Shown here piece by piece: positions 59,401-64,000 of a stretch of 64,000 bases of DNA. The stretch spans positions 8,680,001 to 8,744,000 of the forward strand of contig OZ287751.1 in assembly GCA_965649765.1 (NCBI GenBank), in the 5' to 3' direction. Numbering within the stretch: position 1 is the stretch's first letter; the number at the start of each line of letters is the position of its first letter. The position numbers are program-made. The DNA is from Bispira polyomma. Taxonomy: Eukaryota.

Positions 59401-62400
59401 CTACTACTAAAAAGGCCTCAGGTACTATTGGTGCACTTGTTTTGGGCGGTGGAGAAAGAAAAAAATTAATTACTGATTGTGTTGTTGGCGGCTGTGGTGG
59501 ATTAAAAGTCACTACCAGACATCTTAGAAACAGGACTCTGTGGTGAAACTTAAATTTAAAGAACCAAAAAAAAAAAACAACCCCAAAAAAATGTACATAA
59601 TCTAGATCTAGATCGGTCTAGATCTAATATATTTGGTGTGTAACATTTGAAGCTGATATGTATATATATATATGTACATTCATAGTAACTAGATTTGATA
59701 ATATACATTATACAGAATTTTGTTCCCCTTTATTGGATTACATACACAAAAAACCTGTGATAAATGTGGTTGTTCTTTGATAGAAGGAGTCAGGAGCAGA
59801 GATTTGAACTGTTATACACAAAACACACACACACACAGCTGAAGTCACTAGGTATAAAGACTGGTCAAACTCTATCACATATCTTGAATCTGGATTATTA
59901 CAAGGATTGACTTCAGCTCCTGTGTATATGTACGTGTGATTATCCATATATGTTTTGTGGTTGGACATACAAGTCATTATTTCATCGGTTTGTAGAAATA
60001 GTGAAAAGCAACTGTTATCGAAACATAGAGGAGTTGTTGGCAGAGTTACTACCATCATATTTAAAGTGACAATAAAATAAACTAAGAAAAAATTATTTTC
60101 TTTGGGATTTGTATTTCTTTTGTGTACATGATTTGATGCATTAAAATTTGGATTTAAAATCGTGTATGCCACTGAACATTATACAATGGGATATGAACAC
60201 CAAATATAATAAATATAGAATGTTGTATGAGGTTCACAATATGAATATTTAAACTGTCACTCCACTCAGATAACTGGATTTATCTTATATAGACAGAGTA
60301 CCTTTAATCAGCTGTACTTATTATATGTCACCAGGATAATGGCTACCTATGCAAACACCAGATATTTGTGCCGTCTTCAGCTGACGTGCCTTATATGGCT
60401 GGTAGGAGTGACCTTGACCTTGTGCTTGCCTTCAGGTCCGGAATCTCAGTTTACATTCCTCCACTCGAAACAAGCCCAGTTTGCCAAGGACTTGCAGAAC
60501 TATCAAATTACCATTCCAGAGAAAGTGACAAAAACTGGCACATTTCTTTCACATAGTGTCAACCACGTGTTACCTGCATTACGTCATAAGCGGAGCCTTG
60601 GGTTCACACAGAGCACACTGGATGGTGATCTTTTGGAGCAAATTCATTACAAATTAAAGGTGGATAATAAAAACTTACATTTAGAACTGCAGCCCAATGA
60701 TAAGCTTATATCTCCAGGCTTTGTGATCGAAAGAAGAAACAAAGGTTATCAGAATCTCTCCCATGCCAACATTAAAGCTTATCCACAGAATAAGTGTCAC
60801 TATGTTGGTAAAGTGAAAGGAGATCCATTGTCCCAGGTTGCCCTGGCCACATGTGATGGCTTACATGGGCTAATAAGTACAACCGATGGTCAGTATATGA
60901 TAGAACCACTCAAAGTAAACAATGCAGACAGTTCAGCAAAACATGCCCATTTGATATACAACAGAACATCCTTACCTGCACATCTAGACGTACAGCAAAG
61001 TTCCAACAGATTGCCCAAAGATCAACATTTAAAATCTGACTCGTGTGGAGTAGAAGAAAGCTATGGTCAAATTCTGAAAGAAAGGGATACTTGGCAAAGA
61101 GAAAACCACCAGGAAACAAAAAAGAATCGTCGCAGAAAGAAGAGGTCATTCAGTGTGGAGAGGTATGTTGAAGTGATGGTGGTAGTTGACAAAGATATGA
61201 TGGAGTATTACGAGAATGATGATGTAGAAACTTATGTGCTTACCATAATGAACATGGTCTCCATGCTCTACCATGATTCATCTATAGGTAATGCCATCAA
61301 TGTAGTTCTTGTGAATATGATGTTGATGGACTATGAGGAGAAACAACTGAAAATCACCCACCATGCCGATAACACACTCAGAAGTTTCTGTAAGTGGCAG
61401 AAGTCAATAAACCCAAAAAAGGATTCTGATCCCAATCATCACGATGTGGCTGTTTTAATAACAAGACGTAACATCTGTTCAAAACGCAATGAGCCATGCA
61501 GTACCTTAGGCCTGTCTCAAGTGAATGGTCTGTGCCAGCCTCATAGGAGTTGTAACATTAATGAAGATACTGGATTGTCACTGGCATACACAGTGGCCCA
61601 TGAGCTCGGACATAATTTTGGGATGCAACACGATGGACCAGAAAATGGCTGTCAACCCAAAACAGGGAAATATCAGCTCATGATGTCTGCTCAACTTAAT
61701 GCAGAGGCCTGTCCTATGGTCTGGTCCCCATGTAGTGAAGCTGCTATCACTAAATTCCTTGACAGAGATTGGGGTTTCTGCCTGGACGATGAACCATTGA
61801 ATCATGACTTTTATCTGGACGAGCGACCGCCAGGGATAAAGTATGATGCTGAACACCAGTGCAAATTACAGTATGGCGATGATGCCACATTTTGTGAAGG
61901 AATCGACAATCAGTGTTCCACTCTTTGGTGCAGAGTTCAGAACAAATGCATGACCAGATTGGAAGCTGCAGCTGAGGGTACTATTTGTGGAGATAACAAG
62001 TGGTGTTCTGGTGGTAAATGTGTAACCCAAGGAGAATCTTCTATGTCTCAGAATGGTGAATGGGGAGAATGGGGTTCTTGGTCAAAATGTAGCCGACCAT
62101 GTGGAGCTGGGGTGGCTTACACGGAAAGACATTGTGATAATCCAAGACCAAAGAATGGTGGCAAGTACTGCCTGGGGGAAAGAAAGCGATTTAGAATTTG
62201 TAACACAGATGCATGTGCAGAAGACAGCCCAAGTTTCCAGCATATTCAGTGTTCTGATTTCAACGGTATACCATATAAGGGGCAGTATTATAAGTGGGAG
62301 TATGTTGTGAATCCAAGGACACCGTGCCAATTACACTGCCGTCCTAAAGGGCACTTCTTTTCTGTAATGTTAGCAGATATTGTGAAAGATGGTACTCCCT

Positions 62401-64000
62401 GTTCTAACAAAGGGGCACGGGCCATGTGCATCAGTGGCATTTGCCGACAGGTAGGGTGTGATTGGGACATAGACTCAGAAGCCCTAGAGGATGGTTGCGG
62501 TGTATGTAGAGGTGACGGTTCAACTTGTAAAACTGTTAAGTCTAAGTTTGAGAAGGAACAAGGACTTGGTTATGTAGAAGCTACAGTGATACCTATGGGA
62601 GCAAGAAACATCCGCATTGAAGAAGTGGCAGAATCTAATAATTATCTTGCTGTACGTAATGATGAAGGAGAGTATTATCTTAATGGAGGATGGTTTATTC
62701 AGTGGAATGGTGAATATGAAGCTGCAGGAACTGTCATGTCGTATGAGAGAGATGGAGACAAAGAAATGCTAAGTGCTCCTGGACCTCTGAAAGAACCTTT
62801 ACATATAATGTTACTCTTCCAGTCTGAAAACCCTGGAGTGGAGTTTGAATTTACTGTGCCTAAGATTAATACGACAGATCAGAGAGCACCCGAGTTCAAA
62901 TGGATATACAGTGACTGGACTCATTGTACACAGTCATGTGGAGGTGGGAATCAAAGATCCCAAGTAGCGTGCAGCGACCTAGAACTGGGCATTGTTTCAG
63001 ATCGGTACTGCAATATAAGCACCATGCCAGAAGACATGATGAGGGCATGTAATGAGCATCCTTGTCCACCGAGATGGTGGCCTGGACACTGGCAACACTG
63101 CTCCATTAGTTGTGGAGGAAATGGTGTTAGACGTAGAACTGTCCTCTGTGTGAGAAGTTCTGGTAACGGAGTTCATGAAGCACTAGATGACTCTCAATGC
63201 AAGGCTATGAAGAAGCCAGATGAACAGGAACTGTGCAAACATAACCCCAAATGTGAGACAGCTGGGATCTGGGAGGAAGGACCATGGTCAAGCTGTACAT
63301 TAACTTGTGATGGAGGAATCCAGAGGAGGAGTGTATTGTGTCAAGATGAGTCAGGTTGTTCTACGGATGACAAGCCAGCTTCTGAAAGGACTTGCAATCC
63401 GAATCCTTGTATCAATAGTGAGGCCATCACACAACCACAATCGGATCAAGGATTCCTACCAAATGCCAATACAGAAACTTTTAAAGTCTGGAATTTTGGA
63501 TCCCAAGAAAAAAATCAAACTGTAAAGAAATGGAAAAGAACTGGTCAGCTCAAGCTGGGCACGACTAAAGTAAAAGATAACTTCAGAAAGCTGAATGTAG
63601 CACGCGATATACCAAAATCAGATATGCCTACAGTGGAAGAAGATTTCATGCTAGTTGACCCTAAAGGTGTTTTGTCGAGTAATGTTAAACCATCCTCAGA
63701 TCAATATATCTGGGTGCCACTGCCCTGGAATGTCTGTTCTGTATCCTGTGGTGGAGGACAAAAACAACGGGAAGTTAAATGTTTCCACAAGCATACGCTG
63801 GAAGAATCGCAGGACAGAAATTGTCAGGAATTAGATAAACCTACAAATTCTGCAGAATGTAATGATGAATCTTGTGTTCACTGGGCAACAGGACAGTGGG
63901 GTGATTGCTCAAAGACTTGTGACAATGGCTACAGAACCAGAAATGTTAACTGTGTACAGCAAGGAACGCCAGGAGTGCCAAGTGAGAGTTGTGACGAAAA

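What the first reader, a model, noticed from the sequence alone, without database searches (positions are those of the whole stretch)
60339..64000. Intact, intronless ADAMTS7/12 gene (probable retrogene), absent from the ORF track
Seen: at least 3.66 kb of uninterrupted ORF from signal peptide into the sixth TSR, with an intact HExxHxxGxxH motif and no stops or frameshifts. Known: animal ADAMTS7/12 genes are normally split into roughly two dozen exons. This genome clearly keeps long introns (innexin) and has active retroposition (SINEs, L2, U6 copy). Inference: a retrocopy retained under purifying selection, possibly replacing the intron-rich parent.
Basis: partly seen in the sequence, partly recalled or inferred. 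Interest (0 to 1): 0.75.

Follow-up and report, generated by a model that had tools for sequence, protein, structure and literature searches.

The report
Intron-free ADAMTS7/12-type protease gene
The window ends in a real, intact gene for a secreted matrix-cutting protease whose coding part has no introns although relatives have them, a state best explained by copying back from spliced RNA; this is a known kind of event rather than a new one.

Summary
Window 60339-64000 (+) is one open frame of 1220 codons. It encodes signal peptide, propeptide with two furin sites, reprolysin domain with an intact zinc motif, disintegrin-like domain, TSR1, Cys-rich domain, spacer, three TSRs, a Cys-free linker and two more TSRs. 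It is colinear with ADAMTS7/12-like proteins of spiralians (45-58% identity) and has no window-specific insert except residues 3-9.

"Absent from the ORF track" is a tool rule: ORFs that run off the end are not listed.

Nine exon-sized, invertebrate-like protein fragments from unnamed contigs lose homology at shared points inside this span: 5 after residue 824, 2 after 788, 2 at 376. So relatives have introns where this ORF is continuous, and the intron-free state is derived.

Retroposition is plausible but not shown. The 3' end, any poly(A) remnant, target-site duplications and any parent gene lie outside the window. cDNA-mediated intron loss at the original locus is not excluded. Constraint is indirect: 218 of 221 columns invariant in the other sequences are kept.

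The ADAMTS family already has a retroposition precedent (PMC549037). This is a new member of a known kind, of moderate interest.

The parts
60339..64000 (+). Single uninterrupted coding exon (1220 codons, runs off the window end) of an ADAMTS7/12-type metalloprotease gene
60339..60431 (+). Probable signal peptide (residues 1-31; hydrophobic core about 13-24)
   Evidence: hydropathy only; no dedicated predictor
60504..60818 (+). Reprolysin-family propeptide (residues 56-160). Furin-type sites RHKR (82-85, nt 60582-60593) and RKKR (266-269, nt 61134-61145). CGV Cys-switch-like motif at residue 236.
61161..61796 (+). Reprolysin (M12B) catalytic domain; zinc motif HELGHNFGMQHD at residues 421-432 (nt 61599-61634); Met-turn kept
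61830..62024 (+). Disintegrin-like domain (Pfam ADAMTS_CR_2, residues 498-562)
62064..62216 (+). Central thrombospondin type 1 repeat (TSR1, residues 576-626)
62277..62528 (+). Cysteine-rich domain (ADAMTS_CR_3, residues 647-730)
62532..62861 (+). Spacer 1 (residues 732-841). Relatives show exon borders inside or next to it, at residues 703-705, 743, 788 and 824.
62895..63443 (+). TSR2-TSR4 (residues 853-1035; core motifs at 863, 921, 986)
63444..63692 (+). Cysteine-free second spacer (residues 1036-1118; 0 Cys, 12 Lys, S+T+P 16 of 83, so not mucin-like)
63711..64000 (+). TSR5 (residues 1125-1179) and the start of TSR6 (from 1180), cut by the window end
60315..60338 (+). Immediate upstream context. 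Candidate 3' splice acceptor (...caccag, AG at 60333-60334) lies 4 nt before the ATG. The start context GATAATGG has A at -3 and G at +4. Function is inferred only.
60286..60292 (+). TATATAG 47-53 nt upstream of the ATG, in a stretch that is about 67% A+T. A possible core promoter element, but could be chance.
   Evidence: (reading)
48794..48987 (+). Neighbour: first coding exon of an innexin gene (64 codons plus 2 nt, donor CAG|GTAGGT, stop right after in frame). No further innexin exon anywhere in the window, so the ADAMTS exon may lie inside its first intron.

Best explanation
The stretch is the first 3.66 kb of a gene for a secreted zinc metalloprotease zymogen of the ADAMTS7/12 type.

Shown: the coding sequence from the start codon into the sixth TSR is one exon, it is colinear with orthologues, and every catalytic and structural hallmark is in place.

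Inferred from family knowledge: the product enters the secretory pathway, a furin-type convertase removes the propeptide at RKKR (residues 266-269), and the enzyme binds and cuts extracellular-matrix proteins through its TSR, Cys-rich and spacer modules.

Shown indirectly: related animals have introns at five or more places inside this span, so the intron-free state is derived.

Inferred: all coding introns were erased in one step through a reverse-transcribed spliced mRNA. The most likely route is retroposition of a full-length mRNA copy into this site, perhaps into the first intron of an innexin gene on the same strand. The copy then stayed, or became, the working ADAMTS7/12 gene of this lineage. 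It would be transcribed either from a nearby AT-rich promoter or from an upstream non-coding exon spliced to the acceptor 4 nt before the ATG.

My confidence by step: real intact ADAMTS7/12-type gene without coding introns in view, about 0.95. Intron loss is derived, about 0.8. RNA-mediated single event, about 0.75. Relocated retrogene rather than conversion at the original locus, about 0.5. The last figure is the one entered as the confidence of this explanation.
For: - The frame of 1220 codons is open.
- The domain order is complete.
- E-values are 2e-89 to solved ADAMTS13 and 7e-85 to ADAMTS-5. The active site and Met-turn align with ADAMTS-5 and ADAMTS-1.
- The best named relatives are ADAMTS7/12-like proteins of molluscs, nemerteans, brachiopods and annelids, then vertebrate ADAMTS7.
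- In an alignment with 18 of the 120 listed hits there is no window-specific insertion of 5 or more residues except residues 3-9. So no in-frame retained intron is present.
- 63 of 75 conserved Cys columns are kept. The 12 misses are one optional 6-Cys module, also absent from 4 of the 18, and an end-of-window artefact.
- 218 of 221 columns invariant in the other 18 sequences are kept (98.6%). The same leave-one-out value is 93.2-100% for the others.
- Relatives have introns. Of the 61 short hits, I examined 24. Nine were invertebrate-like, at most 74% identical to any named vertebrate.
  - 5 of these 9 (P0228, P0229, P0235, P0237, P0238) lose homology after residue 824. All 5 read V where the window and 18 of 18 full-length orthologues read L, as expected if an intron starting GTN is read through.
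  - 2 of 9 (P0234, P0239) stop after residue 788, and their tails start with V where 18 of 18 orthologues have W.
  - 2 of 9 (P0241, P0242) match only residues 328-376, inside ORFs of 190-196 aa.
  - Starts cluster at 703-705 (3 fragments) and at 743 (1 fragment).
  - Four of the five fragments that end at 824 were compared with each other and are 73-85% identical, so they come from different taxa.
  - One fragment sits on a contig of 1.05 Mb and one on a contig of 19 kb, so these are genomic.
- Some ADAMTS intron positions are shared by worm, fly and chordates. The ADAMTS1/4/5/8/15 clade is held to descend from a retroposed, once intronless copy (PMC549037, passages).
- Reverse-transcriptase ORFs lie in the same window.
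- The neighbouring innexin exon ends in a canonical donor, so the genome does splice.
Against: - No retrocopy hallmark can be seen. The stop codon, 3' UTR, poly(A) remnant and downstream target-site duplication lie beyond 64000, and no parent gene can be searched for.
- The 200 nt upstream of the ATG do not look like a copied 5' UTR. They are AT-rich and hold 9 ATGs in 60128-60325. A plausible acceptor sits right before the ATG. A retained 5' intron is what in situ cDNA conversion predicts.
- The fragments that mark introns are unnamed, and their DNA could not be read. GT-AG borders are therefore inferred from the protein tails only.
- The border at 788 is not shared by P0228 and P0229, which read through it. 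Some of these introns may be lineage-specific gains.
- No protein closer than 60% (whole length) or 77% (an 86-residue piece) exists in the database. So the age of the event, dN/dS and expression are unknown.
- Conservation of invariant residues would also be seen in a very young dead copy.
- Only one innexin exon is present. Nesting in an innexin intron is a guess.
Confidence: 0.5

Rival explanations
1. Intron loss at the original locus. The ancestral multi-exon gene was converted by recombination with a reverse-transcribed copy of its own spliced mRNA. This wiped out the coding introns without moving the gene, and a 5'-most (UTR) intron may survive.
For: - There is a candidate acceptor (AG at 60333-60334) 4 nt before the ATG, and the upstream sequence is unlike a UTR, with 9 ATGs. 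cDNA-mediated loss is expected to spare 5' introns (established model, recalled).
- Conservation is the same as in annotated orthologues.
- No second ADAMTS-like sequence is in the window: all 20 HSPs outside the ORF have E of 0.25 or more.
Against: - Converting about 3.7 kb, and on the vertebrate model some twenty introns, in one tract is rare in animals (recalled).
- The gene lies 11 kb downstream of an innexin exon 1 whose later exons are missing from the window. That fits an insertion into a foreign intron better than an old gene neighbourhood.
- Neither point is decisive.
Confidence: 0.25
2. A young processed retrocopy that is not, or not yet, a working gene. It is intact only because too little time has passed, and the functional intron-containing parent lies elsewhere in the genome.
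For: - Everything seen here (open frame, kept motifs, kept invariant columns) is also expected of a recent copy.
- There is no expression evidence and no self-hit or close hit among transcript-derived proteins.
Against: - A full-length copy of an mRNA of at least 3.7 kb that reaches exactly to the start codon is unusual for retrocopies, which are usually 5'-truncated (recalled).
- The start codon has a good context.
- No poly(A) tract or parent gene can be examined, so this rival is limited mainly by prior odds.
Confidence: 0.12
3. Stepwise loss, or an old clade-wide intron-poor state. The lineage lost these introns one by one or long ago, and all its members share a single-exon orthologue, so nothing notable happened recently.
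For: - The window's protein is no closer than 58% to any full-length relative, so a large unsampled clade could share the state.
- Intron positions among the fragments differ between taxa (788 versus 824), which shows intron turnover in this gene.
Against: - The fragment nearest to the window (P0234, 77% over 86 residues against 67% to the best named spiralian) still has an intron after residue 788.
- Named Gnomon protein 'isoforms' of the orthologue exist in the gastropods Gigantopelta and Biomphalaria, the nemertean Lineus, the brachiopod Lingula, the bivalves Ruditapes and Dreissena, and Octopus. This implies spliced coding regions in those phyla.
- Losing every intron of a 3.66 kb stretch independently is unparsimonious.
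Confidence: 0.1
4. Assembly artefact: a cDNA or transcript contig was joined to genomic sequence.
For: Only the absence of introns itself.
Against: - The ORF is continuous with 60 kb of ordinary AT-rich, repeat-bearing genomic DNA.
- There is no UTR-like leader and no composition break other than the usual rise in coding G+C (0.33 to 0.40-0.44).
- The ORF shares no repeat with the rest of the window.
Confidence: 0.03

Closest known systems
Vertebrate ADAMTS7 and ADAMTS12 (the COMP-cleaving subgroup)
   Same: - The domain order is the same: signal peptide, furin-processed propeptide, reprolysin domain, disintegrin-like domain, TSR1, Cys-rich domain, spacer, three TSRs, a Cys-free second spacer, further TSRs (architecture as described in PMC13673249, passages).
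- Vertebrate ADAMTS7 proteins are 47-49% identical in the best local alignment.
   Different: - Human ADAMTS7 has 24 exons over 52.3 kb (PMC13673249). Here there is no intron in the first 1220 codons.
- The second spacer is short (83 residues), lysine-rich and not mucin-like.
- The last TSRs and the PLAC domain are outside the window.
- Substrates are unknown.
Spiralian ADAMTS7/12-like proteins (e.g. Gigantopelta P0004, Lineus P0005, Lingula P0006, Owenia P0022, Paralvinella P0039)
   Same: They are colinear over the whole visible length, 50-58% identical, with the same Cys framework.
   Different: - 12 of the 18 aligned sequences carry an extra 6-Cys module after TSR3. The window lacks it, as do P0004, P0039, amphioxus P0033 and coelacanth P0053.
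- Exon-sized fragments of relatives show introns that the window lacks.
The ADAMTS1/4/5/8/15 clade, proposed to descend from a retroposed intronless copy of an ADAMTS9/20-like gene (Nicholson et al. 2005, PMC549037)
   Same: Same gene family and the same proposed mechanism: a spliced mRNA copied back into the genome, giving an intron-free ADAMTS gene (passages).
   Different: That event is ancient and chordate-specific, involved another subfamily, and the copy has since regained introns. Here the intron-free state is still visible, in a 7/12-type gene of a spiralian.
'Orphan' retrogenes (functional retrocopies whose parent was lost)
   Same: An intact intron-free copy of a normally multi-exon gene, possibly the only copy. 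The concept comes from PMC3548309 and PMC4772013 (search listing and start of abstract only).
   Different: Loss of the parent is untested here, and most described cases are much shorter genes (recalled).

Membership tests
ADAMTS proteases (M12B reprolysin with thrombospondin repeats) | Reprolysin catalytic domain with HExxHxxGxxHD zinc motif and Met-turn | tested here: met
   Pfam Reprolysin 1.8e-30; HELGHNFGMQHD at 421-432; aligned to ADAMTS-5 and ADAMTS-1 active sites with the Met-turn kept
ADAMTS proteases (M12B reprolysin with thrombospondin repeats) | Signal peptide and propeptide ending in a furin-type site | tested here: met
   Pep_M12B_propep 3.3e-20; RHKR at 82 and RKKR at 266, just before the catalytic domain; hydrophobic N-terminus (no signal-peptide predictor was available)
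ADAMTS proteases (M12B reprolysin with thrombospondin repeats) | Ancillary order: disintegrin-like, central TSR, Cys-rich, spacer | tested here: met
   ADAMTS_CR_2 498-562, TSP_1 576-626, ADAMTS_CR_3 647-730, ADAMTS_spacer1 732-841
ADAMTS7/12 subgroup | Closest named relatives are ADAMTS7 or ADAMTS12 | tested here: met
   Most of the 120 listed hits are named ADAMTS7, 7-like or 12-like; a few automatic names say 6-like. No tree with the other subfamilies was built.
ADAMTS7/12 subgroup | Three TSRs after spacer 1, then a second Cys-free spacer, then more TSRs | tested here: met
   TSR cores at 863, 921 and 986; residues 1036-1118 hold no Cys; TSR cores at 1133 and 1190. Feature as described in PMC13673249.
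ADAMTS7/12 subgroup | Second spacer is mucin-like | tested here: not met
   S+T+P are 16 of 83 residues, Lys 12 of 83. This region is also highly variable among the invertebrate orthologues aligned.
ADAMTS7/12 subgroup | Four C-terminal TSRs and a PLAC domain | not testable with these tools
   Only two of these TSRs lie before the window end at 64000
Retrogene (processed retrocopy) | Lacks the introns of its parent or orthologues | tested here: met
   Open frame of 1220 codons. Nine invertebrate-like fragments mark introns in relatives at 376, 788 and 824 and exon starts at 328, 703-705 and 743. The fragments' DNA was not seen.
Retrogene (processed retrocopy) | Poly(A) remnant after the 3' UTR | not testable with these tools
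   The 3' end lies beyond the window
Retrogene (processed retrocopy) | Flanking target-site duplications | not testable with these tools
   Needs the 3' flank; the 5' border of any copy cannot be placed without it
Retrogene (processed retrocopy) | Intron-containing parent elsewhere, or a location different from the ancestral locus | not testable with these tools
   No other ADAMTS-like sequence in the window.
Retrogene (processed retrocopy) | Functional: under constraint and expressed | tested here: inconclusive
   218 of 221 invariant columns are kept, but no close relative allowed dN/dS and there are no expression data

The most novel reading that the evidence does not exclude
A full-length retrocopy of a very long mRNA (more than 3.6 kb of coding sequence) landed, in sense orientation, inside the first intron of an innexin gene of a spiralian. 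It took over as that lineage's only ADAMTS7/12 gene after the multi-exon parent was lost. This would be a still-visible replay of the event thought to have founded the vertebrate ADAMTS1/4/5/8/15 clade, caught before any intron was regained.
Probability: 0.2. Interest if true: 0.55.

Novelty: new member of a known kind. Interest (0 to 1): 0.35.

Why it matters
If confirmed as a working retrogene, it would be an unusually long example, and a natural snapshot of the intron-free stage that Nicholson et al. (PMC549037) could only infer for the ADAMTS1/4/5/8/15 ancestor. It would also be a case for studying how a large secreted matrix protease keeps its regulation after losing all introns and, perhaps, its original promoter.

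For annotation the practical point is simpler. This is a real gene that an ORF list restricted to complete ORFs misses, and it should be annotated as an ADAMTS7/12-type protease.

Otherwise it is an ordinary event. RNA-mediated intron loss and retrogenes are well described, and this family already has a precedent.

Tried and rejected
- **Isoforms for exon borders.** The listing of cluster members, meant to fetch isoforms of the named orthologues, answered that the shared database is switched off. The only isoform evidence is the names.
- **Literature.** Four searches were run: 'ADAMTS' + 'intronless' (29 papers, only PMC549037 relevant); 'ADAMTS' + 'single exon' + 'invertebrate' (6 papers, none relevant by title or abstract); 'ADAMTS' + 'annelid' + 'intron' (9 papers, none relevant); 'ADAMTS gene family' / 'mollus' / 'gene structure' (nothing relevant among the 10 listed). 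I found no description of an intron-free ADAMTS7/12 gene. That statement rests on these four searches only.
- **More innexin exons.** Pfam on 101 stop-to-stop frames of 70 aa or more, on 150 of 222 frames of 45-69 aa chosen by G+C, and on all 149 plus-strand frames of 24 aa or more in 48000-60300 found only exon 1. tblastn with 7 full-length innexins found only residues 1-65/72; the one longer hit ran on into the intron at low identity.
- **Is the innexin intron after codon 65 shared?** Only 2 of 30 short innexin fragments end near that point (66 and 69); the others end at 95-283. The position is not widely conserved.
- **Second ADAMTS copy or parent exons in the window.** None found.
- **A missing 6-Cys module after residue 976 as a sign of a skipped exon in the template mRNA.** Rejected, because 4 of the 18 aligned orthologues also lack it, including vertebrate and amphioxus sequences.
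- **Classifying the reverse-transcriptase element.** No LTR or inverted repeat in 10500-18500, no solved-structure relative, and no further Pfam domain even at E up to 1.
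Full report
**1. The observation**

Window 60339-64000 on the plus strand translates into 1220 codons without a stop. The frame opens at 60231, and 60339 is the first in-frame ATG. From the ORF's own base composition the chance of no stop is about 9e-36. That figure excludes random sequence, not a young dead copy.

G+C rises from 0.33 in 58001-60000 to 0.40 and 0.44 in the last two 2-kb bins. G+C by codon position is 0.50, 0.42 and 0.38. The window contains no N.

The ORF lister leaves out ORFs that run off the end of the source, and it listed only short ORFs here.

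**2. What it encodes**

Pfam finds the following, in order:
- Pep_M12B_propep, residues 56-160
- Reprolysin, 275-486
- ADAMTS_CR_2, 498-562
- TSP_1, 576-626
- ADAMTS_CR_3, 647-730
- ADAMTS_spacer1, 732-841
- five TSP1_ADAMTS stretches

The best solved relatives are ADAMTS13 (6qig, 2.2e-89), ADAMTS-5 (2rjq, 7.4e-85), ADAMTS-1 and ADAMTS-4.

The zinc motif HELGHNFGMQHD (421-432) and the Met-turn align with the active sites of ADAMTS-5 and ADAMTS-1. Furin-type sites lie at 82-85 (RHKR) and 266-269 (RKKR), and a CGV motif lies at 236. The N-terminus has a hydrophobic core at about residues 13-24 (hydropathy only).

Six TSR core motifs start at 584, 863, 921, 986, 1133 and 1190. Residues 1036-1118 between the fourth and fifth hold no cysteine. 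The layout is therefore spacer, three TSRs, a second Cys-free spacer, then further TSRs. That matches the ADAMTS7/12 architecture described in PMC13673249 (passages read).

The second spacer is lysine-rich and not mucin-like: S+T+P are 16 of 83 residues. The last TSRs and the PLAC domain would lie beyond the window.

**3. Relatives**

The protein search returned 1641 hits, of which 120 were listed. None was a self-hit. The best is P0001 (unnamed, 60% over 60% of the query). In the alignment it reads like the Lingula protein P0006 with an internal duplication.

Next come ADAMTS7/12-like proteins of gastropods, bivalves, a nemertean, a brachiopod and annelids (50-56%), then vertebrate ADAMTS7 (47-49%).

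I aligned the window protein with 18 of the 120 listed hits:
- Identity is 45-58%, highest to Paralvinella P0039 (57.9% over 901 aligned residues).
- The only window-specific insertion of 5 or more residues is residues 3-9. No in-frame retained intron hides in the ORF.
- 63 of 75 conserved Cys columns are kept.
- Six of the 12 misses are one optional module after residue 976. It is also absent from P0004, P0039, P0033 and P0053.
- The other six misses are an alignment artefact at the cut end.

The N-terminus is as long as in annotated orthologues, so no upstream coding exon is missing.

**4. Constraint**

The window protein keeps 218 of 221 columns (98.6%) that are invariant in the other 18 sequences. 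The same leave-one-out measure gives 93.2-100% for the others. The lineage leading to this gene has therefore been constrained like any orthologue.

This does not exclude a very recent loss of function. No DNA of a close relative was available, so dN/dS could not be computed.

**5. Do relatives have introns here?**

A protein search restricted to shorter proteins gave 61 hits. I compared 24 of them, the unnamed ones plus the Capitella model P0203, with the window protein.

I then screened those 24 against named references. Nine are closest to mammals or birds: P0219, P0220, P0221, P0225, P0232, P0233, P0240, P0243 and P0244. They may be mammalian, perhaps human, so I set them aside and did not use them.

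Nine others are invertebrate-like, at most 74% identical to any named vertebrate. They behave as exons read through into introns:
- **P0228, P0229, P0235, P0237, P0238** match up to residue 824. All five then read V where the window and 18 of 18 orthologues read L. This is what an intron beginning GTN gives. Unrelated tails of 5-22 residues follow.
- **P0234 and P0239** match up to residue 788. Their tails begin with V where 18 of 18 orthologues have W.
- **P0241 and P0242** match only residues 328-376, inside ORFs of 196 and 190 residues.
- **Homology starts** cluster at 703-705 (P0228, P0229, P0234) and at 743 (P0235).

Four of the five fragments that end at 824 were compared with each other and are 73-85% identical, so they come from different taxa. 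P0238 lies on a 1.05-Mb contig and P0242 on a 19-kb contig.

P0234 is the sequence nearest to the window: 77% over 86 residues, against 67% to the best named spiralian.

The remaining 6 of the 24 were not informative for borders. Five (P0192, P0199, P0202, P0206, P0236) are 39-42% identical to the window; the sixth is the Capitella partial model P0203.

Caveats:
- The fragments are unnamed.
- Their DNA was not seen.
- P0228 and P0229 read through position 788, so not every border is shared. Some may be lineage-specific gains.

In addition, the names include protein 'isoforms' for the orthologue in Gigantopelta, Biomphalaria, Lineus, Lingula, Ruditapes, Dreissena and Octopus. That implies spliced coding regions there.

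Nicholson et al. state that some ADAMTS intron positions are shared by worm, fly and chordates (PMC549037, passages). Human ADAMTS7 has 24 exons (PMC13673249).

I conclude that the intron-free state of the window gene is derived.

**6. Surroundings**

*Upstream of the ATG.* The sequence is AT-rich and holds 9 ATGs in 60128-60325, which is unlike a long 5' UTR. There are two readings of how transcription starts:
- a TATATAG at 60286-60292 with a very short leader; or
- a 3' splice acceptor (AG at 60333-60334) that would join an upstream non-coding exon 4 nt before the ATG.

Neither can be tested here. The ORF shares no repeat with the rest of the window. No other ADAMTS-like sequence is present: all 20 HSPs outside the ORF have E of 0.25 or more.

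Pfam Innexin scores 3.6e-16 over profile positions 1-45 of 333. The exon has a CAG|GTAGGT donor and a stop immediately after it in frame.

Seven full-length innexins match only their first 65-72 residues anywhere in the window, on either strand; the one longer alignment runs on into the intron at low identity. If that gene is intact, its first intron is longer than 15 kb and the ADAMTS exon lies inside it on the same strand. Otherwise the exon is an orphan.

The intron position after codon 65 is shared by only 2 of 30 short innexin fragments.

Named relatives of the exon are annelids (Helobdella 85%, Lamellibrachia 83%, Hirudo 80%) and Intoshia. The source is therefore a spiralian, possibly an annelid. 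It is not human, since innexins are invertebrate proteins (recalled).

*Reading phase.* From coordinates alone, the innexin donor (two bases into a codon) and the candidate acceptor (4 nt before the ATG) would be in phase. That has a 1-in-3 chance and no support.

The innexin was searched as exon 1 alone, and the joined step was left out.

**7. Mechanism**

Erasing every intron of a 3.66-kb coding stretch in a genome that splices its neighbours is most simply one event through a reverse-transcribed spliced mRNA. Two routes fit:
- **Retroposition to a new site.** Favoured by the possible nesting in a foreign intron and by the family precedent.
- **Conversion of the original gene by its own cDNA.** Favoured by the possible retained 5' intron and the lack of a UTR-like leader.

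I put them at about 0.5 and 0.25. A young non-working retrocopy gets 0.12, a clade-wide old or stepwise state 0.1, and an assembly artefact 0.03.

Reverse-transcriptase ORFs in the window show that such enzymes are or were encoded nearby, not that they acted here.

**8. Comparison and verdict**

The protein is a member of the ADAMTS family: all defining features visible here are met. It fits the 7/12 subgroup except for a non-mucin second spacer and an unseen C-terminus.

As a retrogene it meets the one feature testable here, lack of the introns present in relatives. The others lie outside the window.

The ADAMTS1/4/5/8/15 clade is already held to stem from a retroposed intronless copy (PMC549037). 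Orphan retrogenes are a described class (PMC3548309 and PMC4772013, listing and abstract start only).

This is a new member of a known kind, and I score interest at 0.35.

**9. What stayed unchecked**
- the 3' end of the gene;
- the rest of the assembly;
- animal genomic loci of relatives;
- the DNA of the fragment contigs (closed collections);
- cluster members;
- supplementary files of the papers (closed);
- expression.

Noticed in passing
window 12109-16027 (+): Virus-like retroelement stretch, described only. It has three long open frames as they stand: 417 aa (12109-13362), 258 aa (13425-14201) and 578 aa (14291-16027). The third carries reverse transcriptase (RVT_1, 1.1e-8) and an RNase H-like part (RVT_3, 3e-4). 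Pfam finds no protease or integrase domain, even at E up to 1. There are no terminal direct or inverted repeats within 10500-18500 and no solved-structure relative. The class is undetermined. A+T skew is high here (0.26 and 0.17)..
   Followed up: partly
window 9813-10436 (+): A frame of 208 aa matching only the C-terminal part of a reverse transcriptase (RVT_1 profile positions 128-205 of 205, E 6.3e-7).
   Followed up: no
window 5515-5624 (+): Full-length U6 snRNA match (RF00026, 56.2 bits against a gathering score of 44, model positions 1-105 of 105). Whether it is a gene or a retroposed copy was not examined.
   Followed up: no
window 48794-48987 (+) and 49121-49488: Innexin exon 1 stands alone in the window. 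Just downstream, a tandem array (period 154, 2.4 copies) repeats sequence very like the exon's own donor junction (…GGTAGGTCTTGTCAAATGTCGTCTGCTTG…), so the exon-intron border has been duplicated into the intron.
   Followed up: partly
window 48987/48988 and 60334/60335: By coordinates, the innexin exon 1 donor (phase 2) and the candidate acceptor 4 nt before the ADAMTS ATG would be in frame.
   Followed up: no
window 2922-3361, 33869-34616, 43401-43624, 31533-31672: Tandem repeat arrays: period 71/146 (6 copies), period 62 (12.1 copies, 94% matches), period 23/35/58, and period 43. They explain the oddly periodic 'ORFs' at 2786-3298 and 43349-43768.
   Followed up: no
proteins P0001 and P0006: The top hit P0001 (unnamed, 1702 aa) reads like the Lingula ADAMTS7 protein P0006 with a large internal duplication from the Cys-rich domain to TSR3. 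It is probably a model or assembly artefact rather than a closer relative.
   Followed up: partly
alignment columns after window residue 976: An extra small 6-Cys module between TSR3 and the next TSR is present in 12 of 18 aligned orthologues. It is absent from the window, Gigantopelta isoform X2, Paralvinella, amphioxus and coelacanth. It may be an optional, perhaps alternatively spliced, module in this subfamily.
   Followed up: no
window 16500-48700: About 32 kb with no Pfam-recognisable coding frame on either strand. All stop-to-stop frames of 70 aa or more, and 150 of the 222 frames of 45-69 aa between 16500 and 60300, were scanned. The window is gene-poor apart from the innexin exon and the ADAMTS gene.
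   Followed up: partly
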